Assembly: GCA_027468165.1 (NCBI GenBank)
Contig: GCA_027468165.1_3951.1
Strand: one strand, 5' to 3'
DNA length: 64,000 nt
Source: a phage
Shown here: piece by piece, positions 20,701 through 64,000 of the stretch
How the letters are laid out: the number at the start of each line of letters is the position of its first letter
Numbering within the stretch: the stretch's first letter is position 1
Translations under genes and position numbers: made by a program
The notes under the pieces: model-generated
Told to the model about the DNA's origin: nothing
The model's database searches: none
Seen by the model: the letters and a program-made list of their open reading frames with translations, nothing else

Positions 20701-21246
20701 TCAAAAGTGTCCTTTTACTTGTGGAACATAAATTTCAAAAGTTGCTTTACCATCCTCTGATGGTTTTGACTGTACCTTTGTAAATACACGACCATCATAC
20801 AACTTCTCGAAGAAGTTTTCAAAAGGTAAATGTACAGTGACCTCTTCAGTAACTTTATGGAAAACTGTATGGAACACTACATCAGCATACGGTAAAGCAT
20901 TGACAAGGACACCTGCACCACCAATTACAAAGACATCTTCATCAATAGAGCTATCAAGATACTTCAAAAATGCTCCAAATGACTCTTTACTGGCTTTTGC
21001 ATACATTACGTCATCTTTGCCAAAGTCTATACCTAAGTATGGTACAGAGTTTGTTAATATGAGGTTTGCACGTTCTGGTAAAGGTTTACTACCCAGAGTC
21101 TTGAAAGTCTCATTACCCATCACTACTAAGTTGTTTTTAGTGAGTCTCTTAAACTCTTGCATATCCTGTTTATGTCGAGGCCACGGCATACCAGTTGGAG
21201 TACCAAACTCACCATTTTCGCCACTTGCAAAGATTAATTTAATCAT
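20701..21246 (-). CDS. folA: Dihydrofolate reductase
   Basis: GMPW, VVMGNETF, PLPERANLILTNS and VIGGAG match DHFR motifs; adjacent to thyA. Confidence 0.9.
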   Translation of the reverse strand: MIKLIFASGENGEFGTPTGMPWPRHKQDMQEFKRLTKNNLVVMGNETFKTLGSKPLPERANLILTNSVPYLGIDFGKDDVMYAKASKESFGAFLKYLDSSIDEDVFVIGGAGVLVNALPYADVVFHTVFHKVTEEVTVHLPFENFFEKLYDGRVFTKVQSKPSEDGKATFEIYVPQVKGHF

Positions 21247-21503
21247 TTTGTAAATCCTTTCTTAATGAACCAGTTGATAACATTCTTCACAGCTTTATTA
21301 CTATGGTAGATTAAGTGTGGTGTAGGCTGGTATAAACCATAAGCCCAGAAAGCAATGATTTCATTACATCCTGTACACCTTGTACTCTCTTCGGCAATAT
21401 GACCGTGGACTATTTCACTTACCTCACCTTGTAAGTCTGTACACCCACAATGTGGGCATCGGATAGGTGTTCCATCAGACTCATAGCAGTGTTCAATTTT
21501 CAT
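21243..21503 (-). CDS. Zinc-ribbon protein (hypothetical)
   Basis: CPHCGC ... CTGCNE cysteine pairs. Confidence 0.4.
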   Translation of the reverse strand: MKIEHCYESDGTPIRCPHCGCTDLQGEVSEIVHGHIAEESTRCTGCNEIIAFWAYGLYQPTPHLIYHSNKAVKNVINWFIKKGFTK

Positions 21504-22019
21504 TTATTTAACCTCAAAAACTGGCTCAAGAACCAATATAAAGTCTACACAGTCATCTTCTTCATCCAGAATACCATCAAAGTTCTTAGGAACGAAGTCG
21601 AAGAGGCTCATAACAAAACAGTCAGAAGTAACCCTAATAGTGCCTCCCATATTCTCTACAGTCAACACTGTACGGCTTTCTTTTACCTCTCGAAGAAGAT
21701 TGCTCACAAAGTCATCTAAGAAGTACTTCATCAGTGACTTAAAACCTTTAGGGTAATCTGTACCAGAGTATGTTTCAATCTGAGGTACAAGCTTAACATT
21801 TATACTAGTCTTTGTTAAGAACGTATTAGAGAACATGCTATCAGGTAACTTGCAAACAGTCTTTCCAGTACCTTCATGTTCAATCTCAACAAAACCAGCT
21901 TCATCGCCACATGTAACTATTTTAAAAGATGCTTCATTCTCATACTGTGAAGCCATAAACTTTTTAAGCATCTCTTTAAGGAAATCTGCATGGGCATCTT
22001 GTAAGAAGATATCAATCAT
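21504..22019 (-). CDS. Hypothetical protein
   Basis: 171 aa ORF in the minus-strand operon. Confidence 0.4.
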   Translation of the reverse strand: MIDIFLQDAHADFLKEMLKKFMASQYENEASFKIVTCGDEAGFVEIEHEGTGKTVCKLPDSMFSNTFLTKTSINVKLVPQIETYSGTDYPKGFKSLMKYFLDDFVSNLLREVKESRTVLTVENMGGTIRVTSDCFVMSLFDFVPKNFDGILDEEDDCVDFILVLEPVFEVK

Positions 22020-22032
22020 AGTTAATCACCTA

Positions 22033-22392
22033 TTATGGGAACAGACACTTAATGTCATCGTTTTTGAAAACGAAGCTTGTGTAATTGTGACCATCAACGT
22101 CCAGCCAAACAGCCTGAACATCTACACCATCAAGGTTGTGGTAAAGCTCTTTGATGAAGTGGTCTTTCACAATCTGACTGCTAGTTGTTTCCAGCTTAAT
22201 GTTTGAGATTGCTGAACCTACAGCCATATAACCCATGACACGTTTCTTCTCAGTATGATTAATCTTACCATCTTTGTAAGTCATAATGAGATTGGAAAGA
22301 ATCTTTGCACCGTAATGCTTCTCAAGGTGAGTAGGTACACCATAAAAACCTAGTGCGAAGTTTTCAGAGTGGATAATGTTTTCACGTTTCAT
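22033..22392 (-). CDS. Hypothetical protein
   Basis: 119 aa ORF in the minus-strand operon. Confidence 0.4.
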   Translation of the reverse strand: MKRENIIHSENFALGFYGVPTHLEKHYGAKILSNLIMTYKDGKINHTEKKRVMGYMAVGSAISNIKLETTSSQIVKDHFIKELYHNLDGVDVQAVWLDVDGHNYTSFVFKNDDIKCLFP

Positions 22393-22393
22393 A

Positions 22394-22723
22394 TTAATCT
22401 GCCAACCTTAAATTGAAGTTAACACCAAATTTTTCACATACTCCCAACATAAACTCAAGGGAGACATTGCCAGTGAGATTGATTATGTTGGATACACGAG
22501 CCTGAGAGATACCACAAATTTTAGCAACTTGCTCTTGAGAAAGACCTCTGGATTTAATCTCTCTCTTAAAACGATGTGCAACGAAATCTCTCATTTCGTC
22601 TACATCCATTGGACAAATATAACTCCCCATTTCAGCCTCTCTGTCAGCCTCCCAATCATCTTGTGGAGCATAAGGGTCAAAAACCTCATTCATCTTTCTT
22701 CTTCCGTTTGCGTGAAGTGTCAA
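22394..22723 (-). CDS. Helix-turn-helix (XRE-type) DNA-binding protein
   Basis: LSQEQVAKICGISQARVSNIINLTGNVSLEFMLGVCEKFGV matches the HTH_3 pattern. Confidence 0.6.
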   Translation of the reverse strand: MTLHANGRRKMNEVFDPYAPQDDWEADREAEMGSYICPMDVDEMRDFVAHRFKREIKSRGLSQEQVAKICGISQARVSNIINLTGNVSLEFMLGVCEKFGVNFNLRLAD

Positions 22724-22898
22724 TCAATGAATCTATGTTTGTAGCTCTAACCTTTTCACGTTCATCGTTAAGATAATCGTCAAGAGCCTTTTCAATCTGT
22801 GAATCATCTTGACAGATAACTGTAAAGACTGTAAAGCCGTCTGTATCATCAATTATCTTACCATAACCGCTTCTGGGATGTAACTTTTTAAGAGCCAT
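22686..22898 (-). CDS. Hypothetical protein
   Basis: 70 aa ORF with basic C-terminus; overlaps the start of the HTH gene. Confidence 0.3.
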   Translation of the reverse strand: MALKKLHPRSGYGKIIDDTDGFTVFTVICQDDSQIEKALDDYLNDEREKVRATNIDSLIDTSRKRKKKDE

Positions 22899-52938: not shown

Positions 52939-55305
52939 ATGCGCATGGTAAATGACCACGCAGAAGTGATTAAGAGTTCAACTTCTTTGGAGACGTCTCA
53001 AGCACAGATTACAATGACACCTGAAATGTTCAGCCTTCTGAGTTCTGGTGTATATACCTTTAAAGAGCGAGCAGTAATTCGTGAACTGTCATGTAACGCA
53101 GTAGATGCTCAGAAAGAAGCTGGAAAAGAGAACATCCCGTTCCATGTGCATTTACCTACTCGTTTTGAGCCTTACTTTGAAGTTCGTGATTTTGGAACTG
53201 GATTGACTCATGATAAAGTTATGAGTTTGTATCTAAATTACGGGGCTTCTACGAAGAATGACTCTAATGACTACATTGGTGCAATGGGTATCGGTTCAAA
53301 ATCTCCATTTGCAATTGCTCAGTCATTCACAGTATCTAGCTATGTTGATGGTATTGTTAATAAGTACTCTGTTTACCTTGAGAATGGTATCCCTCAAGTA
53401 ACTAAGCTGACTACCAACCCAACAAAAGAACCTAACGGTTTAGCTGTACGTGTAGCAGTTGCTGACCATCGTATCTCAAAGTTCTTTGAAGAAGCTGGTC
53501 ACGTATACTCATACTTTACTGTAAAACCAGAAAGTAACATTGAGTATGACGATGTATTAGCAGATATGAATGTCATTGCCCGTGAAGAAGGTGTTTATGA
53601 TGCCATGATTCATAAGCAAAGCTGGCGTTCTAGTGGTAACAAGACAGAGTTTAATGTAGTGATGGGTAACATTGCCTACCCTGTTAACATGGAAGCACTA
53701 CTTGGTGATGATTTCTTTAAAGTCTTGCCAGAGTTTTTCCGTAGGAGCGTAGACCTTGTAAACATCTATATGCCTATTGGTTCAGTTGCTATTGCAGCTT
53801 CTCGTGAAGCATTGCAGATGAATGATACAACAAAAAATGTTATCATTGAGGCTACTAAAAAGATAACTGAAGCAATTACAAAGGATGTTATCAAGAAAGT
53901 TAATAGCCAACCTACACTCATGGATGCTGCACAGGCTTATGCTGAGTTACGTTTAAACTCACGAGAGATGTTTAATGCTGTGTGTCCAAAGCTAGAGTGG
54001 GGAGGCGTTAAGCTTGATTCTTTGGAAGAAGAATTGCTAAACATTCGTCGTGGAATTATCTACGCAGAAGACGGCTCAGTCATTTATGAACGTGACGGTA
54101 AAGGTAATATTAAGGTTGATAGGAACGGAAACAACATCCCTAAAGTAGATTATCTTTATGACCCAGTTGCTTATGTCAAGTTCAACTCTTTAGAGAGTAA
54201 GATTCGTGCAACATCACTTTCCTACACTCAAGAGGCAAGTATGTTCAATATCTTTGGAGCAATGCGTAAAAGTCAAATTGAACAGTTTTTGTTTGTTATA
54301 AATGACCGTCGCAATAAAAACGGTACTGAGAAGACTGTAGGACGCAATCAAATCTTGCGTGGTGCATGTCGAGACTATGCCAGTGAGTCGAGTATGTTTC
54401 ACAGATACAATGGTATTGTCTTTGTATTCTCTACTGAGAAAGATTTAGACGACCTAATCAATCTACACAAACTTGATAAAAGCTTGTTAAAGATTGTGAA
54501 GATGTCTGATAAGGAACATCATTATCAGCGTAAAGAAGCTGTAAGAGGTGTTGTAAAACTCTGGAAAGCTGTTCCAGCAGAAGGTGTAGCTTCATACAAA
54601 GAGGTGTCAGAAGACTTAGATACGATTGAAGAGCCTCAGCTTTATATTAAGGCAGTAGGCGACACAGTTGATGGCGAATGTTTTTGCTCATCTCCAGAAG
54701 ATGTAGCTAAGTCAGTTGCCAATGTCATTGGAAAGACAGTATATGTTTTCCGAAAAGCAAATTGGAAAAAGATACCAGAAGATTGGGTTGAAGTAGATGA
54801 GAAGCTCTTGAACGACAGCTTAACTGATGTTCACTGGATTAATCACAACAGGTATATGACACGTATCTATGTGAATGGTGTCCTTGACCTTACAAGCAGT
54901 TGGATTATTGCCAGAAACTTTACGTTCAATAACAGGAAGATTTCTCGTGGCTATTGCTATTCACGAGATACAAACAAAACTATCTTCTTAGAAGGTAATG
55001 AAGATGCTGTTGAGGCAATGTTTGGCAAAATCCAATACGTTGCTGCACCGTTTGCATACACTTACACTGTTAGCAGGTTGCAAACTTTGAAAGGATGCCT
55101 TGACAACGATACAAAGCTGTACAAGAAAATTAAGAAAGCTGGCGACCGTATGGTCATTAAGGTGACAAACTATCTTTCAAAAAGAAAACAAGAAAACTTC
55201 TTGCTTTCTCATTTAGATTGGAATAAAGTGTCACCCATCGAAGTGAGTAAGTTCTTAGGCTTTGATGTGAAGTGTGTTCCAGAAGGGACTACAATTTACG
55301 ATTAA
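52939..55305 (+). CDS. rIIA: GHKL-family ATPase domain protein, rIIA-like
   Basis: N-terminal Bergerat-fold motifs ELSCNAVDA, VRDFGTGL and GAMGIGSKS; 788 aa; followed by a candidate rIIB. Confidence 0.5.
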   Translation: MRMVNDHAEVIKSSTSLETSQAQITMTPEMFSLLSSGVYTFKERAVIRELSCNAVDAQKEAGKENIPFHVHLPTRFEPYFEVRDFGTGLTHDKVMSLYLNYGASTKNDSNDYIGAMGIGSKSPFAIAQSFTVSSYVDGIVNKYSVYLENGIPQVTKLTTNPTKEPNGLAVRVAVADHRISKFFEEAGHVYSYFTVKPESNIEYDDVLADMNVIAREEGVYDAMIHKQSWRSSGNKTEFNVVMGNIAYPVNMEALLGDDFFKVLPEFFRRSVDLVNIYMPIGSVAIAASREALQMNDTTKNVIIEATKKITEAITKDVIKKVNSQPTLMDAAQAYAELRLNSREMFNAVCPKLEWGGVKLDSLEEELLNIRRGIIYAEDGSVIYERDGKGNIKVDRNGNNIPKVDYLYDPVAYVKFNSLESKIRATSLSYTQEASMFNIFGAMRKSQIEQFLFVINDRRNKNGTEKTVGRNQILRGACRDYASESSMFHRYNGIVFVFSTEKDLDDLINLHKLDKSLLKIVKMSDKEHHYQRKEAVRGVVKLWKAVPAEGVASYKEVSEDLDTIEEPQLYIKAVGDTVDGECFCSSPEDVAKSVANVIGKTVYVFRKANWKKIPEDWVEVDEKLLNDSLTDVHWINHNRYMTRIYVNGVLDLTSSWIIARNFTFNNRKISRGYCYSRDTNKTIFLEGNEDAVEAMFGKIQYVAAPFAYTYTVSRLQTLKGCLDNDTKLYKKIKKAGDRMVIKVTNYLSKRKQENFLLSHLDWNKVSPIEVSKFLGFDVKCVPEGTTIYD

Positions 55306-55310
55306 AGTGT

Positions 55311-55340
55311 TTGACAAGGGGCTTTGAAGCCCCTTAGAAT
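55311..55340 (+). promoter_or_regulatory. Sigma70-like promoter with a GC hairpin in the spacer
   Basis: TTGACA, 17-18 nt spacer containing AGGGGCTTTGAAGCCCC, then TAGAAT. Confidence 0.4.
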
Positions 55341-55384
55341 AGCCTTACAAAATGATTTATTAACTAACAAGAGAGAGTAATAAG

Positions 55385-57826: not shown

Positions 57827-58291
57827 ATGAACAATATCATTACGGTAGCACTGGACGATACGACAAACAAATCTGTATTAGTTCGTAAATTGATTCAAGG
57901 TAACTTTGAAGGTAAAATTTTTCGTGCTGTTAATGTAAAAGCTGATGGCAGCATTCGTGAATATCGTGCATTGTTGAATGTTAAAAAGCACGTAAAAGGT
58001 GCTGGTTCAACGACTGCACACAAAGAAAACCTGATGACTATCTATGATATGGGTAAGGCTTCAGAGTTAGGTGCTGAAGGTATCGTTAAAGAAGGTGCTC
58101 CGTATCGCTCTTTCAATCTGGAAACTACTCTTATGCTTTCCTTTACAAGTGGTTCTAAAACAATCACTTACCTCTTTACTGATGCTGCAACGGTATCTGC
58201 TATTAAGGATGGCACTGTCAAAGCTGGCGTAGTTGCTGCTGCAAAAGCTTCTTCGATGGCTGCGAATATCCTTGCTAAAGTCCTCAGTTAA
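57827..58291 (+). CDS. Hypothetical protein
   Basis: 154 aa ORF followed by a strong terminator. Confidence 0.4.
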   Translation: MNNIITVALDDTTNKSVLVRKLIQGNFEGKIFRAVNVKADGSIREYRALLNVKKHVKGAGSTTAHKENLMTIYDMGKASELGAEGIVKEGAPYRSFNLETTLMLSFTSGSKTITYLFTDAATVSAIKDGTVKAGVVAAAKASSMAANILAKVLS

Positions 58292-58303
58292 GGTTAAGAT
58301 ACA

Positions 58304-58325
58304 GGCTCCTTCGGGAGCCTTTTTC
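58304..58325 (+). terminator. Rho-independent terminator
   Basis: AGGCTCC-TTCG-GGAGCCT hairpin followed by TTTTT. Confidence 0.6.
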
Positions 58326-58343
58326 ATTTCAGGAGATTGTTAA

Positions 58344-58691
58344 ATGACATTTAAAGAGTTCTGCCAAGCTACTTTCATAATTGTTTTCTTAGTTGGGGCG
58401 GGTGTCTGGGGAGGATACTCTTACCGAGACTATCAAGTTGCTGAAGCTGAGCTAAACAATGAGAAGCTAATAAGTGTTGCTAAAGATGCTTATCAGGAAG
58501 GTTTAGCCACACTCAGCACTAATTACAAAAATGATTTGAAAGACGTGCTTGCTAAGAATAAGCATACAAAAGAGGTACTAACATATGAAAAAACTAAGCC
58601 AGAGTTTTATAATGTTTGTGTTACTGATAATTATGTCAGGGTGTTCAACGAACAAAGTGAACAGTACATTCAAAAACTCCCAAGTAAGTGA
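58344..58691 (+). CDS. i-spanin (Rz-like, putative)
   Basis: N-terminal transmembrane helix FIIVFLVGAGVWGG then a charged periplasmic domain; an o-spanin-like ORF starts inside it in another frame. Confidence 0.45.
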   Translation: MTFKEFCQATFIIVFLVGAGVWGGYSYRDYQVAEAELNNEKLISVAKDAYQEGLATLSTNYKNDLKDVLAKNKHTKEVLTYEKTKPEFYNVCVTDNYVRVFNEQSEQYIQKLPSK

Positions 58692-58854
58692 GAGTGACAA
58701 GTACACCCAAGAAGAATCAAGATTCACTGTCAAAGGCAACACTGGTAGTGATGTGGCAGCAGCCCTTGAGTTTTATCGTGATGGTTTTTACCAGTGCACA
58801 ATCAAAGCTAATAATCTTATTGACATGATTTTATTAGAGAACAAACAGCAATGA
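58585..58854 (+). CDS. o-spanin (Rz1-like lipoprotein, putative)
   Basis: Signal peptide with lipobox-like IMSGC; begins within the i-spanin gene and extends past it. Confidence 0.45.
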   Translation: MKKLSQSFIMFVLLIIMSGCSTNKVNSTFKNSQVSESDKYTQEESRFTVKGNTGSDVAAALEFYRDGFYQCTIKANNLIDMILLENKQQ

Positions 58855-59120
58855 CAGAGAACGAAGACACTTTCTATGTAGAAGGGTACTTACTGCTACC
58901 ACGACCAAAAGAAACTTATATGCGGGTTGATTTTTCACCAACCATTATGGATAACGTGATGTGTCATATCTTTATGCAAGGTGTCACAGCACAACTTAAG
59001 CATGTTGGTAAAGAGTGCAAAATAAAGGTTGACACTCATCCAGAAATCAAAGAGAATCACTACACATGGTTCTTACCAGACTCTAAAGAAATCTTAGCAG
59101 TTCTTAAAACGAGGAAATGA
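58851..59120 (+). CDS. Hypothetical protein
   Basis: 89 aa coupled ORF. Confidence 0.3.
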   Translation: MTENEDTFYVEGYLLLPRPKETYMRVDFSPTIMDNVMCHIFMQGVTAQLKHVGKECKIKVDTHPEIKENHYTWFLPDSKEILAVLKTRK

Positions 59121-59431
59121 TTATGCAATTCCAGCCAACAAATCGTGGATTTTCTTATGCAGAATTTAAAGATGCTAAAGGAGAGATTTGTACTTTACAA
59201 GAAAGTTCATCATATGAACCATGTATCTGGTTAGGTGCTAAAGAGGTCTCTGTTCAGTACCTAGATGGTGGCTGGAAAACACTTGATATCCCAGCATTAG
59301 TAGGCAAAGATTTTGTAGGTAACCAAAGAATGAAACTCAACCAAGAACAGGTGAAAGAGTTGTTACCGTACCTTCAGTACTTTGCTGAAAATGGTGAATT
59401 ACCAACAGAGGAACTTACAAATGCAGATTAA
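59117..59431 (+). CDS. Hypothetical protein
   Basis: 104 aa coupled ORF. Confidence 0.3.
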   Translation: MIMQFQPTNRGFSYAEFKDAKGEICTLQESSSYEPCIWLGAKEVSVQYLDGGWKTLDIPALVGKDFVGNQRMKLNQEQVKELLPYLQYFAENGELPTEELTNAD

Positions 59432-59744
59432 TGGAAGAGACTTTGTAGCTGTTTACTACGAGAAAGATAAAGAAGTTGGCGTAGCACAAGTATCTTATGG
59501 TAATGGTAAGTGGTTGTATGGAACAATCGCAGTAGTCGGAACAAGGAGTGATACAAAAACTTTTAAAGATTGTGTTGACCTTCTTGAAGAATCCATCCAC
59601 AATCATTGGTGTCTGATATGGATGACTGACAACGAAGTGATAGCACGCTTCAAAAAGATTGGTATCAACATTGATAGCATTGAGCATGTTGATTTGTATG
59701 AGCTAACTGAGAAGGTAAACTATGAAAGCTCTAGAGGTAGTTGA
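59421..59744 (+). CDS. Hypothetical protein
   Basis: ATG after GAGGA RBS. Confidence 0.3.
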   Translation: MQINGRDFVAVYYEKDKEVGVAQVSYGNGKWLYGTIAVVGTRSDTKTFKDCVDLLEESIHNHWCLIWMTDNEVIARFKKIGINIDSIEHVDLYELTEKVNYESSRGS

Positions 59745-59949
59745 CAAAGACACTGGAGAAGTCATATCTGCATGTGTTTTCATAAGCGATGACACAGTGA
59801 TACCATTTTACAACCTTGATGGTTTTAGTTTTACAGGGATAACTCCAGAAGAATACTTTGAAGACCTTACCTTTGCCAGAATCTCTATAGATACATTCTA
59901 TAAATGTTTCTATGATGAAGGTAAAGAGTTACGAGAAACTGAACTATAA
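59722..59949 (+). CDS. Hypothetical protein
   Basis: 75 aa ORF. Confidence 0.3.
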   Translation: MKALEVVDKDTGEVISACVFISDDTVIPFYNLDGFSFTGITPEEYFEDLTFARISIDTFYKCFYDEGKELRETEL

Positions 59950-59960
59950 GGCTTATATTT

Positions 59961-60161
59961 ATGGCTGACTTCTGCAAAGATTGTGCTATCGAAATGTTCG
60001 GACGTGATACAGGAGACTTAAAAGGTCTTATCACTGAAGATGACTTTAAAGCTGGCTATGCAATGCCAGTAATCTGTGAAGGTTGTGGGTGTATCTGGGT
60101 AGACCACGAAGGACAACGTGTAAAACCTTCAGAAGATAAAGAATCTTGGGAGAGATGTTAA
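59961..60161 (+). CDS. Small zinc-ribbon protein (hypothetical)
   Basis: CKDC ... CEGCGC cysteine pairs. Confidence 0.3.
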   Translation: MADFCKDCAIEMFGRDTGDLKGLITEDDFKAGYAMPVICEGCGCIWVDHEGQRVKPSEDKESWERC

Positions 60162-60947
60162 ATGGGTATTGTAAAAATAATCAATGGGGATATCTTCTCT
60201 GCATTTGATAAAGGTAAGTTTGATATCATTGGTCACGGTTGCAACTGTATGAACTTAATGGGTGCAGGTATCGCTGACAAGATTTCTAAACTTTACCCAA
60301 AAGCATATGAGACTGATACAGAAGTTTATCTGTATGCAGGTGGTATAGGCCACAAACCCTGTGAAAATTTACTAGGTAATTTCTCTGTAGCACGTTTAGA
60401 ACAAGGCCGTATAGCTAACCTTTACACTCAGCTTAAGACTGGTAAAGATGCCCGATACAGTGCTTTAGAGTCATCTTTGAAACAGCTTAACAGATACTGT
60501 GAAGTCAATCAGTTGAAGAAAGTTGGTTTACCTATGGTTGGTGCAGGTATCGGTGGACTAGACCCTCAAGCCGTCACAGTTATCATTAATCAGGTGATGA
60601 AGAGCGTAGATGTTTACCTGTATGTCTACGAGGCAGAGATGTACCACGAGTTACACTCAGGTTGGAATAACTACTGTGAACCAGAATACTTTGCAGGTGT
60701 AGTAGTGTTCACTGATGATGCAGTTACCCTCTTCAGACGAAGAAAAGGTAAGATACATCAAAGTAACCCTCCGGTTGAGAAGATGTCTCTAAGTAACGCT
60801 CTAGTTACCCACCTGTCGAAGAGCAATCACAGAATTGCAGTAACATTTGGCAGTGATGCAGATACATATATCTATGCAAGAACTGATGAGGATGTTAAGG
60901 AAATTTTCTCTTCACAGGAAGTTACCTTCTTAGACGCAAAGAACTAA
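60162..60947 (+). CDS. Macro-domain-like protein (possible ADP-ribose binding/processing)
   Basis: DIIGHGCNCMNLMGAGIADKI resembles the macro-domain glycine-rich motif (cf. VNAAN..L.GGGGV); weak, from memory. Confidence 0.3.
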   Translation: MGIVKIINGDIFSAFDKGKFDIIGHGCNCMNLMGAGIADKISKLYPKAYETDTEVYLYAGGIGHKPCENLLGNFSVARLEQGRIANLYTQLKTGKDARYSALESSLKQLNRYCEVNQLKKVGLPMVGAGIGGLDPQAVTVIINQVMKSVDVYLYVYEAEMYHELHSGWNNYCEPEYFAGVVVFTDDAVTLFRRRKGKIHQSNPPVEKMSLSNALVTHLSKSNHRIAVTFGSDADTYIYARTDEDVKEIFSSQEVTFLDAKN

Positions 60948-61017
60948 GAAACTCTGTAGAATATTCACAATAGACTAAGCCTTTCTTATCTGGTAAATTT
61001 TTCAGGTAAGGAGGGCT

Positions 61018-61200
61018 TTTTCATTTCAGGATTGTGCAGGTAGATTTCTGGACAGAAATCTGTAGAGAGAATTTTGAACTCCAAAGAGAAAATTCATTTT
61101 CAAACTGTGCAGGTAATCTCCAAAGAGCTTTTTCATTTTCAAAACGTGCAGATAAAAATCAGGTCGGGCAAGAAAAATCATTTTAGAATTGTGCAGGTAG
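61018..61200 (+). repeat. Four imperfect direct repeats, core TTCATTTTCAAA-N-TGTGCAGGTA, in a noncoding region
   Basis: Copies near 61018, 61092, 61130 and 61177; also CTCCAAAGAG twice; the 70 aa track ORF here translates the repeats. Confidence 0.6.
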
Positions 61201-61375
61201 GTGAGTGTAGGTGGGAATGTCGCCATTTCTCACAAGGCTACCACATCCGAAAAGAAAAGTCAACAGAAAAATTTGTAGCGGATTGAAAAATAATTCTTGA
61301 TTTGTGTTCTGTTTTGTGGTAGTCGCGTGCGCCCGTTTCATTACATTTTTGCCAAAAATATTTTTAAAATTTTTA

Positions 61376-61404
61376 TTGACTCCTCGAACTGGTTTTTATA
61401 GTAT
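61376..61404 (+). promoter_or_regulatory. Sigma70-like promoter with an AT-rich UP-like element
   Basis: TTGACT, 17 nt spacer, TAGTAT (or TATAGT at 15); preceded by AAAAATATTTTTAAAATTTTTA. Confidence 0.4.
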
Positions 61405-61410
61405 TTGCAT

Positions 61411-61469
61411 CAACGGGGAGGTAATGAACTTCCCCACTAAGTAAAACCCTTAAACTAGGAGATTCAAAA
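61411..61469 (+). repeat. Cassette element X1: hairpin GGGGAGG..CTTCCCC plus conserved leader AAACCCTTAAACTAGGAGATTCAAAAATG
   Basis: Near-identical copy at 63179-63237. Confidence 0.6.
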
Positions 61470-61850
61470 ATGGCATATCGTGCACCTAAATTCATCAATA
61501 AAGACAACTTCCGCAACGCACTGGAAAAATCACTTGATGGGAATTTTACAGGTCAGATTATTGTTGTTCATGCATTCAATTTTAAGTATGATATTAACGG
61601 GAACAGAATCAACCATTACACGGCAACCATGTTAGATGGTACGCTATCAAGTGAAAAAGCTGTACTGAATGCACTTGCTGGACGTGGTAAAAACCTGATA
61701 AAATGCAATAAGAGACGTTATCAGGGCGGCGCATATGGTTATGATGATGCTGTTTATCATCTTGAAAATATGGGCTATTCAGTGGAAAAAGCTGGAGTGT
61801 CTCAAATAATCGGCAGTGACGGCTATGTGACAATATTCAAAATTAACTAA
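61470..61850 (+). CDS. Cassette small protein A (hypothetical)
   Basis: 126 aa ORF starting right at the conserved AGGAGATTCAAAAATG leader. Confidence 0.45.
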   Translation: MAYRAPKFINKDNFRNALEKSLDGNFTGQIIVVHAFNFKYDINGNRINHYTATMLDGTLSSEKAVLNALAGRGKNLIKCNKRRYQGGAYGYDDAVYHLENMGYSVEKAGVSQIIGSDGYVTIFKIN

Positions 61851-61853
61851 TAA

Positions 61854-61938
61854 AGTACTTTACAAGGGGTTTATAGTTCGATAAAGTAAGCCCCAGATAA
61901 AGAGCTTTACCACTCAATCCTAAATTGGAGATTCTAAA
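61854..61938 (+). repeat. Cassette element Y1: GTACTTTACA + hairpin GGGGTTTA..TAAGCCCC + AGATAAAGAGCTTTACC + leader
   Basis: Related copies at 62200-62286 and 63511-63597; leader variant CTAAATTGGAGATTCTAAAATG. Confidence 0.6.
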
Positions 61939-62196
61939 ATGGCTATTATCAAAAACGTTGTAATTACTGCAAAAACTCGCGATGACGCTCGCATCATGGC
62001 GAAAAAGTTAGGCGGGAAAGTTGTTGACAACGGAAAACAATCTGCTGTAAGGTGGGGCGTGAAGGCTGATAAACAACTAACCTTAAAACGCAGTTCAAAC
62101 AATCTTTTTAAAGGTGTAAAATCACTCGGTAAAGTGAACGTGTTTACCAAAAAAGGCTATAAAATGCGCTTGTCATTAACTGGCAATTTAATCTGA
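61939..62196 (+). CDS. Cassette small protein B (hypothetical, Lys-rich)
   Basis: 85 aa ORF after element Y1. Confidence 0.4.
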   Translation: MAIIKNVVITAKTRDDARIMAKKLGGKVVDNGKQSAVRWGVKADKQLTLKRSSNNLFKGVKSLGKVNVFTKKGYKMRLSLTGNLI

Positions 62197-62199
62197 TAA

Positions 62200-62286
62200 A
62201 GTACTTTACAGGGGGCTTAAAAGCTGATATCTTAAGCCCCAGATAAAGAGCTTTACTATATTAACCTTAAACTAGGAGATTCAAAA
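62200..62286 (+). repeat. Cassette element Y2 (stem variant GGGGCTTAA..TTAAGCCCC)
   Basis: Same flanks as Y1/Y3 with paired changes in the stem that keep base pairing. Confidence 0.6.
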
Positions 62287-62799
62287 ATGAAAACTGTAGA
62301 CGCTACCTTTGAAGTTGTAAAAGAAAAATTTTCCATCATTTACGAAGCTGTTAACTGCTACGAAGCAAGCCATAGCCTTGATAATTGGGAATTTACAGAT
62401 AATCACCAAGGTGGTGTGACTATTAAAAACCCCAACTATCGTTATAATGCTTTTAAATATGCAATCCCTTTACATTACAGCCTTAAACAGCTTTCAAGCG
62501 ACTATGCAAAACAAGGCCGGGAAAATCCATCAAAAGCGGCCTATATCAGCTTGCAGAGAGAACTAGAAAGGGATTTAGAAGCTTCAGCATATAATATTGC
62601 CGCAAAAGTTGTCGATGCAAACGGGAAAACGGTTTTAGATAGTTTTTCTATTGGTTACGCTTTCGATTGGTGCTATAGCGACGGCGTCGATTTAGCGGAT
62701 AGACTAAAAGAGGAGGTGAGCAGTTCAGGCGCAGAATCTGAAGTTATGGAACAATTAGAAGCCTTAAAAGATTCAGTGATGAATATCTTTAAAAATTAA
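62287..62799 (+). CDS. Cassette protein C (hypothetical)
   Basis: 170 aa ORF after element Y2. Confidence 0.45.
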   Translation: MKTVDATFEVVKEKFSIIYEAVNCYEASHSLDNWEFTDNHQGGVTIKNPNYRYNAFKYAIPLHYSLKQLSSDYAKQGRENPSKAAYISLQRELERDLEASAYNIAAKVVDANGKTVLDSFSIGYAFDWCYSDGVDLADRLKEEVSSSGAESEVMEQLEALKDSVMNIFKN

Positions 62800-62815
62800 A
62801 TTAAGAGGGAACACC

Positions 62816-63148
62816 ATGTTAATGATGGGTATCACTGCAATCATCGCCATTATAGCACTTTACAAGGCTTATAGCGCATATAATTTGGCAAGTAAGGCAA
62901 TCACACAACAGGTTAGTAATAACCTTGTAATGAGCTTTCTGGAGCGTTTAAGTGATGAGCAATTGAAACGGCTAGAAATGAGCTTTAGATTCAAAGCGAA
63001 AACCTATCAGATAAGTGATATCTTAAAAGAGGATTTTCAGCTTGTCGATGATTATAACGCCCTGATAAATGCTTTAAATATCAGTGACTTAAAAGATTAT
63101 TACGCTGTAATTGTCCAAGAATTGAACAAACGAAAAAATTTCTCTTGA
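62816..63148 (+). CDS. Cassette protein D (hypothetical; N-terminal hydrophobic helix)
   Basis: 110 aa ORF with its own GAGGGA RBS; N-terminus MLMMGITAIIAIIALY. Confidence 0.4.
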   Translation: MLMMGITAIIAIIALYKAYSAYNLASKAITQQVSNNLVMSFLERLSDEQLKRLEMSFRFKAKTYQISDILKEDFQLVDDYNALINALNISDLKDYYAVIVQELNKRKNFS

Positions 63149-63178
63149 ATTTGGTTTTAAAAGCAAGTAAATTACTAA

Positions 63179-63237
63179 TCAACGGTGAGGGAATGAACTT
63201 CCCCACTAAATAAAACCCTTAAACTAGGAGATTCAAA
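63179..63237 (+). repeat. Cassette element X2
   Basis: CAACGGTGAGGGAATGAACTTCCCCACTAAATAAAACCCTTAAACTAGGAGATTCAAAATG, near-identical to X1. Confidence 0.6.
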
Positions 63238-63510
63238 ATGTATACTACTAACAACGGTCGCACCTTAAACGTAACCCTGCGCCACTATGTAAACGGCGTG
63301 ATGAACTTTGAAGATTTACAAGCGGAGCAACACATTCTGGATTGGCAACTTGCAGGATTCCAAAAAACTGCTACCGGATACGGGAAAAAGATTCCAACTA
63401 GTTGGAAAGTATACTACGAAGGGCGTTTGCGCAGAATTTATCAGGATGTATACAGCAATAGCGCATCAACTTACATCATGGTAAAAGGTAAAAAATTGCA
63501 TTTAGTGTAA
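63238..63510 (+). CDS. Cassette small protein E (hypothetical)
   Basis: 90 aa ORF after element X2. Confidence 0.4.
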   Translation: MYTTNNGRTLNVTLRHYVNGVMNFEDLQAEQHILDWQLAGFQKTATGYGKKIPTSWKVYYEGRLRRIYQDVYSNSASTYIMVKGKKLHLV

Positions 63511-63597
63511 AGTACTTTACAAGGGGCTTATAGTTCGATAAAGTAAGCCCCAGATAAAGAGCTTTACCGCATTAACCTTAAACTAGGAGATTCAAAA
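63511..63597 (+). repeat. Cassette element Y3
   Basis: AGTACTTTACAAGGGGCTTATAGTTCGATAAAGTAAGCCCCAGATAAAGAGCTTTACC...AACCTTAAACTAGGAGATTCAAAAATG. Confidence 0.6.
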
Positions 63598-64000
63598 ATG
63601 GCTATCAATAAACGCGAATTATCAATTTTAAAAGCACGTTTGACCGTTAACCGGATTAATGTTATTACGTCATCAGCACCAGACGAGACACTGCAAAACA
63701 TTATTGGGAAGATTCAAAGTGTTATCTTAGACGTTGAAAGCGTAAAAAACTCACTGACTGACGTTGCAGCAGGTATCACCTTAAACGGTGCACAATATGA
63801 AATGGCTGACATGTTAGGCAAATCTAAGGTAATGAATAAAGAGCTTGATTTGAAAATGTTCAGATTCGCCGTAAAAGTATGGTTATCCGTCGATTATGAC
63901 GCAAATTTTGCAATCGCTGACTTTTTTGCAACATGGTTACAACGTAATTTGACAAATCACGATTTTCGTGATATCTGCGATGCAATTTATGCAGAACTTT
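63598..64000 (+). CDS. Cassette protein F (hypothetical; 3' end beyond the window)
   Basis: ATG at the conserved leader; frame open to the window end (MAINKRELSILKARL...). Confidence 0.4.
   Translation, partial: MAINKRELSILKARLTVNRINVITSSAPDETLQNIIGKIQSVILDVESVKNSLTDVAAGITLNGAQYEMADMLGKSKVMNKELDLKMFRFAVKVWLSVDYDANFAIADFFATWLQRNLTNHDFRDICDAIYAEL

What the first reader, a model, noticed from the sequence alone, without database searches (positions are those of the whole stretch)
61411..64000. Array of small ORFs, each preceded by a near-identical hairpin-plus-leader cassette
At least five intergenic elements of two related types (X at 61411 and 63179; Y at 61854, 62200 and 63511) precede successive small genes. 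Each has a GC-rich hairpin, and all but Y1 (which carries a related variant) end in the same leader AAACC(C)TTAAACTAGGAGATTCAAAAATG with the start codon at a fixed distance from AGGAG. Y copies also share GTACTTTACA before the hairpin and AGATAAAGAGCTTTACC after it. Stem differences between Y copies (GGGGCTTA..TAAGCCCC versus GGGGCTTAA..TTAAGCCCC) preserve pairing, which points to selection on RNA or DNA structure. The hairpins lack a T-tract, so they are not classical terminators. The arrangement resembles the mobile stem-loop-plus-promoter cassettes that flank shuffled small genes in hyperplastic regions of T4-type phages, and may mark a region of host-takeover or anti-defence genes.
Basis: seen in the sequence. 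Interest (0 to 1): 0.8.

Follow-up and report, generated by a model that had tools for sequence, protein, structure and literature searches.

The report
Promoter-hairpin gene cassettes in Felix-O1-like phage
The end of this window is the start of a fast-changing block of small early genes in a Felix O1-type phage, where each gene carries a near-identical promoter, RNA hairpin and ribosome-binding leader that also serves as the point at which genes are gained, lost and swapped, as already described for T4-type phages.

Summary
The window is a Felixounavirus genome. Bases 61376-64000 hold five repeated intergenic cassettes of two types: X1 and X2, and Y1, Y2 and Y3. In relatives the array continues for about six more cassettes beyond the window end.

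- **X cassette:** a sigma-70-type promoter (-35, 17-bp spacer, TAAATT or TAGTAT), then ATCAAC, a GC hairpin and a shared AGGAG leader.
- **Y cassette:** also looks like a promoter. TTTACA, a 17-bp spacer and TAnnnT are kept across 21 different loop sequences. The promoter is embedded in a two-tier hairpin.
- **Y hairpin:** it shows real compensatory evolution, with 97.7% of positions paired and 6 covarying pairs. Its G·U pairs lie almost only on the sense strand, which points to an RNA structure.

Compared with 14 relatives, every collinearity break but one falls inside a cassette. Only 20 of 250 related genomes cover at least 80% of this segment, against 78-99% for three control segments. Gene order is rearranged in other Ounavirinae genera.

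This matches the PeSL (promoter-early stem-loop) cassettes of T4-type phages in every sequence-testable feature, but without sequence homology. Promoter activity, hairpin function and the roles of the encoded proteins are untested. The proteins have no known family or fold.

Verdict: new member of a known kind, moderate interest.

The parts
60977..61027 (+). Intrinsic terminator after the macro-domain gene; marks the upstream limit of the array
   Evidence: 17-pair stem followed by TTTCATTTCA. It corresponds to terminator t13 of Felix O1 (Table 2 of PMC3185647).
61376..61404 (+). X1 promoter: -35 TTGACT, 17-bp spacer, -10 TAGTAT, with an AT-rich tract upstream
   Evidence: 9 of 12 matches. The same hexamer positions and 17-bp spacer recur in 85 distinct Ounavirinae X copies.
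61409..61469 (+). X1 transcribed part: ATCAAC (61409-61414, predicted start region), hairpin GGGGAGGTAATGAACTTCCCC (61415-61435), shared leader with AGGAG (61436-61469)
   Evidence: family D4; 8-bp stem; -13.5 kcal/mol for the 34 nt that start at ATCAAC; leader.
61470..61850 (+). Cassette gene g4, 126 aa, no known family
   Evidence: No Pfam hit; phrog_4495, unknown function. Absent from Felix O1 and ST11.
61851..61938 (+). Y1 cassette: outer 5' arm TAAAGTACTTTA 61851-61862; -35 TTTACA 61859-61864; inner hairpin 61866-61894; -10 TAAAGT 61882-61887; outer 3' arm 61898-61909; leader up to the ATG at 61939
   Evidence: (89.5 bits).
61939..62196 (+). Cassette gene g12, 85 aa, very basic (pI 11)
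   Evidence: Absent from 7 of the 14 mapped arrays (13 relatives plus the window). One search shows the same g12 gap in L007, which could not be mapped. Flanked by Y on both sides.
62197..62286 (+). Y2 cassette: -35 TTTACA 62205-62210; inner hairpin 62212-62240; -10 TATCTT 62228-62233, preceded by TG; outer 3' arm 62244-62255; leader
   Evidence: (89.0 bits).
62287..62799 (+). Cassette gene g7, 170 aa, acidic
62816..63148 (+). g0, 110 aa, hydrophobic N-terminus; no cassette of its own, starts 16 nt after g7; present in every genome examined
63145..63237 (+). X2 cassette: -35 TTGAAT 63145-63150 (overlaps the g0 stop codon), -10 TAAATT 63168-63173, ATCAAC 63178-63183, hairpin 63184-63204, leader
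   Evidence: Only 8 of 12 hexamer matches, so the scan does not list it. The same slot carries TTGACA in other genomes.
63238..63510 (+). Cassette gene g1, 90 aa
   Evidence: Present in all genomes.
63508..63597 (+). Y3 cassette: the TAA stop of g1 lies inside the outer 5' arm; -35 TTTACA 63516-63521; inner hairpin 63523-63551; -10 TAAAGT 63539-63544; outer 3' arm 63555-63566; leader
   Evidence: -27.3 kcal/mol, z -4.46; 88.4 bits.
63598..64000 (+). Cassette gene g2, 134 aa, cut at its stop codon by the window end
   Evidence: Its Felix O1 ortholog (gene 20) was maximally expressed at 5 min.

Best explanation
Bases 61376-64000 are the first third of a hyperplastic early-gene array of a Felix O1-like myovirus. 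Each small gene, or gene pair, is preceded by a 60-95-bp composite regulatory cassette.

On DNA the cassette is a host sigma-70 promoter.
- **X type:** TTGACA-like -35, 17-bp spacer, TAAATT or TAGTAT, 4 nt, then ATCAAC.
- **Y type:** TTTACA, 17-bp spacer, TAnnnT.

Both types end in the same translation leader, CCTTAAACTAGGAGATTCAAAAATG.

On sense RNA the cassette folds into a GC-rich hairpin.
- **In X** the hairpin lies a few nucleotides from the predicted 5' end of the cassette's own transcript. This is the position at which 5' stem-loops protect E. coli mRNAs from 5'-end-dependent decay (my inference from general knowledge).
- **In Y** the promoter sits inside a two-tier hairpin that begins at the stop codon of the upstream gene. 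Only transcripts reading through from upstream can form it. It would therefore attenuate, terminate, process or 3'-stabilise the upstream message and insulate each cassette (inferred).

Because the cassettes are near-identical direct repeats, homologous recombination between them deletes, inserts, replaces and homogenises whole gene cassettes. That produces the presence and absence pattern seen among relatives.

Shown here: the repeats, the conserved hexamers at fixed spacing, the covarying strand-specific structure, the breakpoints at cassettes, and the plasticity of the region. Inferred: promoter activity, transcription start sites, what the hairpins do, and the timing and function of the genes.
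For: **Identity.** The segment shows megablast matches (60-99% identity) in 250 phage records, nearly all Felix O1-like phages by organism name. Y matches 1454 places in 290 records. X matches 1289 places in 243 records.

**X promoters.** In 85 distinct Ounavirinae copies the -35 is TTGACA (22), TTGCAA (21), TAGACA (13), TTGACG (10), TTGACT (9), TTGATT (7) or TTGAAT (2). The remaining copy, TGACAC, has an 18-bp spacer by my reading. In the other 84 the spacer is 17. The -10 is TAAATT (70), TAGTAT (6), TAAAGT (5) or TAATAT (4). Spacer sequences differ between array positions. The 34 nt starting at ATCAAC fold at -5.3 to -16.6 kcal/mol, -8.0 or lower in all but one copy.

**Y promoters.** T10 T11 T12 A13 A15 of TTTACA and T33 A34 T38 of the -10 are invariant. 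TAnnnT sits 17 bp after the -35 in 66 of 71 distinct copies by script. By my reading the other 5 also fit, 4 because the script picked the wrong -35 in the g13-slot copies and 1 with an 18-bp spacer. This holds despite 21 different loop sequences. T33 and A34 are unpaired loop bases, so base pairing cannot explain why they never vary. The same layout is found in Erwinia phage phiEa21-4 and Citrobacter phage Michonne with different stems.

**Y structure.** Across 71 distinct copies, 97.7% of cells are paired against 92.2% in shuffles (0 of 500 shuffles reach it). Six pairs carry compensatory changes. The covariation score is 0.158 against 0.058. With partners slid by 1-3 columns only 33-56% pair. 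All four copies in phage ESCO45 read GGTGC...GCACC. G·U pairs on the sense strand number 113, against 4 A·C. Folding z-scores are -3.0 to -4.5.

**Recombination.** Breaks in collinearity with 14 relatives fall at 61412-61476, 61941-61953, 62185-62198, 62291-62292 and 63208-63241, all inside cassettes. For the g6 indel the two aligned blocks overlap in exactly the 25-nt leader. Private variants are shared by paralogous copies within five genomes. Michonne carries an empty cassette and a tandem g12 duplication.

**Plasticity.** Only 20 of 250 records cover at least 80% of this segment. Three controls of the same length give 214 of 230, 258 of 259 and 202 of 258.

**Timing.** Felix O1 orthologs of g7, g2, g3 and g5 were maximally expressed 5 min after infection.
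Against: - **No wet-lab data:** I found no transcription-start, termination or reporter data for any Felix O1-like phage in the searchable literature.
- **Weak hexamers:** the Y hexamers score only 9 of 12. Matches at that level are common by chance, with 18 found against 9.5 expected in this segment. X2 scores only 8 of 12.
- **Mixed timing:** the Felix O1 RT-PCR placed orthologs of g1, g13 and g11 at 25 min.
- **No U-tract:** the hairpins lack one, so terminator activity is not predicted by rule.
- **Fixed order within the genus:** in Felixounavirus the gene order never changes and only indels are seen. Passive homologous recombination is enough to explain that.
- **One exception:** the indel junction at 62800-62803 (Y plus g13 inserted before g0) has a cassette on one side only.
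- **Test caveats:** the covariation alignment was fitted to the model, and the copies are related paralogs. The shuffle test therefore overstates independence.
Confidence: 0.7

Rival explanations
1. Only the X elements are promoters. Y is purely an RNA signal in a polycistronic early transcript. It would be an RNase III-type processing site, or a barrier to 3' exonucleases, like the inter-cistronic sites of the T7 early region. It would cut the message into single-gene mRNAs that end in a protective hairpin. (The T7 comparison is from my own knowledge, not tested here.)
For: - Y folds into a 9-bp inner stem, a 3x3 internal loop and a 6+5-bp outer stem, about two helical turns in all.
- Both stems covary.
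- G·U pairs are sense-strand specific, 113 against 4.
- The structure starts at the upstream stop codon, has no U-tract, and can form only in read-through RNA.
- The Y hexamers are modest, at 9 of 12.
Against: TTTACA and TAnnnT stay at a fixed 17-bp spacing across 21 loop variants and three genera. This includes the invariant unpaired loop bases T33 and A34, which a processing site would not need. The two roles are compatible, so this rival mainly disputes the promoter half of the main explanation.
Confidence: 0.2
2. The boxes TAAAGTACTTTA and TAAAGAGCTTTA are two palindromic operators on double-stranded DNA. A dimeric phage or host regulator would bind them to switch the early promoters off. 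The hairpin potential would be a by-product.
For: - The left box is a perfect 12-bp palindrome overlapping the -35.
- The right box lies just after the predicted start site.
- The Felix O1 RT-PCR shows that early genes are not all expressed alike.
Against: - Within-box dyad symmetry shows no covariation. There are 0 compensatory pairs, and the 86.7% pairing equals the shuffle mean (215 of 500 shuffles reach it).
- Pairing between the boxes reaches 96.7% with 2 compensatory pairs. When L5 changes from G to T, the compensating change is in the other box (R8, C to A), not in the same box.
- The conserved U·G pair and the 113:4 asymmetry of G·U over A·C do not fit a duplex-DNA site.
- The phiEa21-4 TTGCAA/GATTAT cassettes lack the right box altogether.
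Confidence: 0.05
3. The Y hairpins are structured single-strand DNA recombination sites. They would be analogous to integron attC sites (outer stem, unpaired spacer, inner stem, variable loop), recognised by a dedicated recombinase or structure-specific nuclease that actively moves gene cassettes. (The attC comparison is from my own knowledge.)
For: - The region is an array of small genes separated by imperfect inverted repeats in which structure is better conserved than loop sequence.
- Genes are gained and lost as cassettes, and order changes between genera.
- Strand asymmetry also fits a single DNA strand.
- The PeSL authors raised the same analogy.
Against: - No integrase or recombinase is annotated in the 33 kb around the array in fBSPA4, and these are virulent phages.
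- Breakpoints are not at one fixed position. Several lie in the leader rather than the hairpin, and X-X and X-Y junctions also occur.
- Ordinary homologous recombination across 25-90 bp of identity is enough.
Confidence: 0.03

Closest known systems
PeSL (promoter-early stem-loop) cassettes of T4-type phages RB49, phi1, PST and nt-1 (Arbiol et al. 2010, PMC2839356; Comeau et al. 2014, PMC4122927)
   Same: - Repeated intergenic composite motifs of about 100 bp: upstream stop codon, sigma-70-like -35 and -10, a GGGG...CCCC stem-loop, Shine-Dalgarno sequence and start codon.
- The stem-loop lies either between or over the -35 and -10 (as in Y) or just after the -10 (as in X).
- They are concentrated in hyperplastic regions full of orphan genes.
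- Indels between close relatives are bounded by the motifs.
   Different: - There is no detectable sequence homology. Blastn with X and Y found essentially only Felix O1-like (Ounavirinae) records by organism name and no named T4-type phage.
- The host lineage is Ounavirinae, not T4-type.
- The Y stem-loop is two-tiered, with an outer stem spanning the -35 and the early transcribed region.
- All cassettes share one long leader.
- Promoter strength, terminator activity and mini-circles were shown experimentally for PeSLs and are untested here.
Direct repeats listed in the Felix O1 genome paper (Whichard et al. 2010, PMC3185647)
   Same: These are the same elements. The 57-bp repeat CTTTACATGGGGCTTAAAAGTCTGTAAAGTAAGCCCCAGATAAAGAGCTTTACCACT is the Y core. 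The 39-bp repeat TTGACACTGGTTTTTAGATAGATTAAATTACACATCAAC is the X promoter.
   Different: The paper lists them only as repeats of at least 24 bp. It assigns no function, structure, promoter role or link to gene-content variation, and does not include them among its predicted promoters.
Host-takeover modules with one strong early promoter and ribosome-binding site per small gene, such as the SPO1 terminal-redundancy module and the T5 pre-early region (recalled from my own knowledge, not checked here)
   Same: A dense run of small genes of unknown function, each with its own host-type early promoter and strong Shine-Dalgarno sequence. The run lies next to a long non-coding region in which at least one deposited record is opened.
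   Different: The position relative to the true genome ends was not established here. Those modules are not known for conserved hairpins or for cassette-bounded indels.
RNase III processing sites between T7 early genes (from my own knowledge)
   Same: Inter-cistronic hairpins of about two helical turns, interrupted by an internal loop and lacking a U-tract.
   Different: T7 sites do not contain promoters. Cleavage of Y has not been tested.

Membership tests
PeSL-type regulatory cassettes | Conserved composite intergenic motif of about 60-100 bp, repeated many times per genome | tested here: met
   Five copies in the window. I count 9-13 X, Y or Z cassettes in each fully mapped array. X copies are 95% identical and Y copies 68-87%. 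Y matches 1454 places in 290 records and X 1289 places in 243 records.
PeSL-type regulatory cassettes | Sigma-70-like -35 and -10 hexamers at proper spacing (sequence level) | tested here: met
   X: a 17-bp spacer in 84 of 85 Ounavirinae copies, with a near-consensus -35. Y: TTTACA, 17 bp, TAnnnT in 66 of 71 copies by script, and in all 71 by my reading. The scan tool lists X1, Y1, Y2 and Y3.
PeSL-type regulatory cassettes | Promoter is active and strong in vivo | not testable with these tools
   The only indirect evidence is RT-PCR of Felix O1 orthologs, with several maximal at 5 min.
PeSL-type regulatory cassettes | G/C-tract stem-loop placed within or beside the promoter | tested here: met
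   In Y the stem fills the spacer and overlaps the -10. In X it starts 10 nt after the -10. The Y structure is supported by covariation.
PeSL-type regulatory cassettes | Stem-loop attenuates or terminates upstream transcription | not testable with these tools
   There is no U-tract. Sense-strand G·U bias shows the RNA form is under selection, but its effect is unknown.
PeSL-type regulatory cassettes | Shine-Dalgarno sequence and start codon of the downstream gene at the 3' end | tested here: met
   AGGAG or TGGAG lies 7-9 nt before the ATG in every copy.
PeSL-type regulatory cassettes | Located in a hyperplastic region rich in orphan genes | tested here: met
   20 of 250 records cover at least 80% of the segment, against 78-99% for controls. 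There are no Pfam hits, and all PHROG matches are of unknown function.
PeSL-type regulatory cassettes | Indels and replacements between close relatives are bounded by the motifs | tested here: met
   Five of six breakpoint zones lie inside cassettes. One zone (62800-62803) is bounded by a cassette on one side only.
PeSL-type regulatory cassettes | Formation of excised cassette mini-circles | not testable with these tools
   This needs inverse PCR or long-read data from infected cells.
PeSL-type regulatory cassettes | Occurs in T4-type myoviruses, or shows sequence relatedness to described PeSLs | tested here: not met
   The host genome is a Felixounavirus. Matches to X and Y are essentially confined to Felix O1-like (Ounavirinae) records by organism name. 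I treat this as a matter of lineage, not of mechanism.
Intrinsic (Rho-independent) terminators | GC-rich hairpin followed directly by a U-tract | tested here: not met
   No X or Y hairpin is called. The only + strand terminator-like site is 60977-61018, upstream of the array.
Rfam RNA families | Score at or above a family's gathering threshold | tested here: not met
   There are only sub-threshold chance matches over Y2 and Y3, to miRNA models at 22-23 bits against thresholds of 47-88.

The most novel reading that the evidence does not exclude
The 64-nt Y core is a dual-coded element. On duplex DNA it is a sigma-70 promoter. On read-through sense RNA the same bases form a covarying two-tier hairpin that acts as a dedicated processing or insulation signal. 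Together with the shared leader, it defines gene cassettes that are exchanged as units across Ounavirinae genera by a hairpin-dependent mechanism, rather than by passive homology alone. In effect this would be an integron-like cassette system without an integrase in virulent phages.
Probability: 0.1. Interest if true: 0.75.

Novelty: new member of a known kind. Interest (0 to 1): 0.45.

Why it matters
- **Wider reach of the cassette strategy:** it would show that promoter-stem-loop-ribosome-binding cassettes are not peculiar to T4-type phages. An unrelated subfamily would have arrived at the same solution independently, which suggests a general way for virulent phages to keep a rapidly changing set of early accessory genes.
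- **A good test system:** more than 250 sequenced Felix O1-like genomes give a natural experiment in cassette gain, loss, duplication and conversion. The unpaired invariant loop bases of Y allow a clean test that separates promoter function from RNA structure.
- **Practical relevance:** Felix O1-type phages are used in Salmonella and E. coli biocontrol and typing. This array is where closely related isolates differ most in gene content. It is therefore the obvious place to look for determinants of host takeover or sensitivity to host defences.

Tried and rejected
- **Rfam:** a scan of 58000-64000 at a permissive threshold gave only sub-threshold chance hits.
- **Classical terminators:** rejected, because no hairpin is followed by a T-tract.
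- **Two palindromic operators:** tested as an explicit alternative structure. There was no covariation and pairing equalled the shuffle mean.
- **Symmetric DNA cruciform:** disfavoured by the 113:4 excess of G·U over A·C.
- **MAFFT alignment of Y cores:** it mis-registered the three copies from the g13 slot by one column. I replaced it with a covariance-model alignment.
- **First model search:** it also pulled in minus-strand hits at about 40 bits, because the element is quasi-palindromic. I repeated it at E no greater than 1e-10.
- **Genome ends:** the start and end of the pEP20 record share no repeat. The record simply opens about 1.1 kb after the array, so the position of the array relative to the true termini remains open.
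- **Literature:** searches for transcriptomics of Felix O1-like phages, and for any link between PeSLs and Felix O1, found nothing.
- **KhF2 record:** it annotates the X hairpins as minus-strand Rho-independent terminators. I regard this as an automatic-annotation artefact.

Full report
**What the window is.** Bases 60900-64000 show megablast matches (60-99% identity) in 250 phage records, nearly all Felix O1-like phages by organism name. The best is Salmonella phage fBSPA4 at 94%. The finding covers the start of a run of small rightward genes. The run follows a macro-domain gene (60162-60947; Pfam Macro, 29.6 bits), an intrinsic terminator (60977-61018) and a 420-nt non-coding stretch. In fBSPA4 the run continues for 13 genes and ends at a non-coding region of about 1.7 kb. 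The window therefore holds only the first five cassettes.

**Checking the observation.** The repeats are real and far beyond chance.
- The two X copies (61409-61469 and 63178-63238) are 95% identical.
- The three Y copies (61851, 62197 and 63508) form a 93-nt family.
- The leader 20-mer occurs four times exactly, and the Y-specific 20-mer three times, with none expected in shuffles and none elsewhere in the 64 kb.
- No hairpin has a T-tract.

Two corrections are small. X2 has its ATG one base closer to AGGAG.

**X is a promoter with a hairpin at the 5' end of its transcript.** I collected 85 distinct Ounavirinae X copies from 16 relatives plus the window.
- The -35 hexamer is TTGACA, TTGCAA, TAGACA, TTGACG, TTGACT, TTGATT or TTGAAT.
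- The spacer is 17 bp in 84 of 85 copies.
- The -10 is TAAATT in 70 copies, otherwise TAGTAT, TAAAGT or TAATAT.
- Four bases later comes ATCAACGG and the hairpin. The 34 nt from ATCAAC fold at -5.3 to -16.6 kcal/mol, -8.0 or lower in all but one copy.

Spacer sequences differ between array positions while the hexamers and spacing stay fixed. Some -35 hexamers lie inside the upstream coding sequence or over its stop codon. That is the signature of a real promoter. The predicted start falls in ATCAAC, so the hairpin would sit a few bases from the 5' end of the mRNA.

**Y is also promoter-like, and the promoter lies inside a hairpin.** The scan tool lists TTTACA, 17 bp, then TAAAGT or TATCTT at all three Y copies. 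At 9 of 12 matches that is weak on its own. The comparative evidence is what counts.
- In 53 distinct Y cores, T10 T11 T12 A13 A15 and T33 A34 T38 are invariant.
- Among 71 distinct copies, TAnnnT lies 17 bp after the -35 in 66 by script. By my reading the other five also fit, four because the script mis-anchored the -35 and one with an 18-bp spacer. This holds although the loop takes 21 different sequences.
- T33 and A34 are unpaired loop bases, so pairing cannot explain why they never vary.
- The same plan, a -35 followed at once by the 5' arm with the -10 in the loop and 3' arm, recurs with different stems in Erwinia phage phiEa21-4 and Citrobacter phage Michonne.

**The Y hairpin is under selection as sense-strand RNA.** Y folds into a 9-bp inner stem, a 3x3 internal loop and an outer stem of 6+5 bp, formed by TAAAGTACTTTA and TAAAGAGCTTTA. 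The free energy is -22 to -27 kcal/mol, with z-scores of -3.0 to -4.5. I built a covariance model from the cores and used it to align 85 copies. On that alignment:

| Measure | Observed | Control |
|---|---|---|
| Cells paired | 97.7% | 92.2% in shuffles (0 of 500 reach it) |
| Pairs with compensatory change | 6 | 3.1 in shuffles (6 of 500 reach it) |
| Covariation score | 0.158 | 0.058 in shuffles |
| Cells paired with partners slid 1-3 columns | 97.7% in register | 33-56% |

Examples of compensatory change:
- GGGGC...GCCCC becomes GGTGC...GCACC in all four copies of phage ESCO45 and in phiEa21-4.
- TTAA/TTAA becomes TATC/GATA in the copies that precede gene g13.
- An outer-stem G:C becomes U:A.

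The alternative, that each box is its own palindromic operator, shows no covariation at all. G·U pairs on the sense strand outnumber A·C pairs 113 to 4. The selected form is therefore a single strand of sense polarity, most simply RNA.

Transcripts started at Y's own promoter would lack the 5' arms. The hairpin must therefore act on RNA arriving from upstream, beginning at the upstream stop codon. What it does there is not known. Attenuation, RNase III-type processing and 3' protection are all possible.

**The cassettes are where genomes differ.** I mapped genes and cassettes in 13 relatives. Gene order is constant, but g6, g15, g4, g12, g7, g13, the block g8-g9-g10, g17 and others come and go in many combinations. 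Aligning the window to 14 relatives puts the breaks at these positions:
- 61412-61476 (X1)
- 61941-61953 (end of Y1)
- 62185-62198 (start of Y2)
- 62291-62292 (Y2 leader)
- 63208-63241 (X2 leader)

For the g6 indel against fBSPA4, the two aligned blocks overlap in exactly the 25-nt shared leader. One junction, at 62800-62803, has a cassette on one side only.

Paralogous copies within a genome share private variants in five genomes, which indicates gene conversion. Michonne has a tandem duplication of g12 and a cassette with no gene. In phiEa21-4 the homologous genes are in a different order, and 9 of 17 genes are new.

Only 20 of 250 related records cover at least 80% of this segment. Three equal-length controls give 214 of 230, 258 of 259 and 202 of 258.

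**Comparison with what is known.** The Felix O1 genome paper listed the Y core and the X promoter as direct repeats, without interpreting them. The architecture matches the PeSL cassettes of T4-type phages in every feature I could test from sequence:
- a sigma-70-like promoter;
- a GGGG...CCCC stem-loop within or just after the promoter;
- a Shine-Dalgarno sequence and start codon;
- location in a hyperplastic region of orphan genes;
- indels bounded by the motifs.

There is no sequence similarity to T4-type elements. No paper in the searchable library links PeSLs with Felix O1-like phages. I therefore file this as a new member of a known kind. It works like a PeSL and meets the definition except for lineage. 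The experimental features (promoter strength, attenuation, mini-circles) remain untested.

**Verdict.** My confidence in the cassette explanation is about 0.7. The main rival, at about 0.2, is that Y is only an RNA processing signal. Interest is moderate.

Noticed in passing
window 61021-61199: Four direct copies of a 22-nt motif, TCATTTTNNNANTGTGCAGGTA, at 61021, 61094, 61133 and 61178 (0.12 expected by chance). They lie in the 420-nt non-coding stretch between the terminator and the first array promoter. That stretch is 84-97% identical in relatives. They could be regulator-binding sites or iterons. Some records annotate a 50-aa ORF across them.
   Followed up: partly
window 60162-60947: The gene just upstream of the array encodes a 261-aa protein with a Macro domain (Pfam 29.6 bits against a cutoff of 22). 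Relatives annotate it as a phosphatase or O-acetyl-ADP-ribose deacetylase. It could counter ADP-ribosylation by the host.
   Followed up: partly
window 62800-63148: g0 (110 aa, hydrophobic N-terminus) has no cassette of its own. It always follows whichever variable gene (g7 or g13) comes before it, 16 nt downstream or overlapping. The Y+g13 indel joins here without a cassette on the right-hand side.
   Followed up: partly
L016 (Citrobacter phage Michonne) 3999-4686: A tandem duplication of the g12 homolog, with an 'empty' cassette between the copies. There a leader plus ATG runs straight into the CTTTACA of the next Y element. This looks like a scar of cassette recombination.
   Followed up: partly
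L017 (phage KhF2) 4168-4188, 5033-5053, 6591-6611, 7750-7770: The deposited record annotates 21-nt Rho-independent terminators on the minus strand inside the array. Judging by their positions relative to the X copies, these are the X hairpins. Nothing appears to be transcribed from that strand and there is no good T-tract, so this is probably an automatic-annotation artefact.
   Followed up: no
L001 (fBSPA4) 21133-21230 and 21230-22860: After the last array gene comes a degenerate X/Y-like remnant (ATCAACGCAACGGGGCTAAATAGCCCCAGATACCTTTACAG) and then a true intrinsic terminator. About 1.7 kb of non-coding DNA follows, full of short repeats such as CTTGTTAG and TGTTAAG. The pEP20 record is opened inside this region. 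A 608-bp terminal repeat is reported for the related phage UAB_Phi87, but I did not locate it.
   Followed up: partly
L001 18787-19329 (gene g9, beyond the window end): A 180-aa, very acidic protein (pI 4.05) that begins MKCFHGTT. The HGT motif recalls ADP-ribosyltransferase or 2'-phosphotransferase active sites, but that is my recollection only. There is no Pfam hit and no significant PDB sequence match. The block g8-g9-g10 is absent from Felix O1 and ST11.
   Followed up: partly
window 55302-55351: A weak plus-strand match of the Y covariance model (21.7 bits, E 0.07). Equally weak matches occur at the equivalent position (downstream of rIIA) in four relatives. It is probably an unrelated hairpin.
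   Followed up: no
literature (PMC12724215): A Gifsy-prophage defence protein restricts Felix O1 and Alf5 but not the closely related VpaE1. Members of this subfamily therefore differ in sensitivity to a defence system, which could be tested against differences in array gene content.
   Followed up: no
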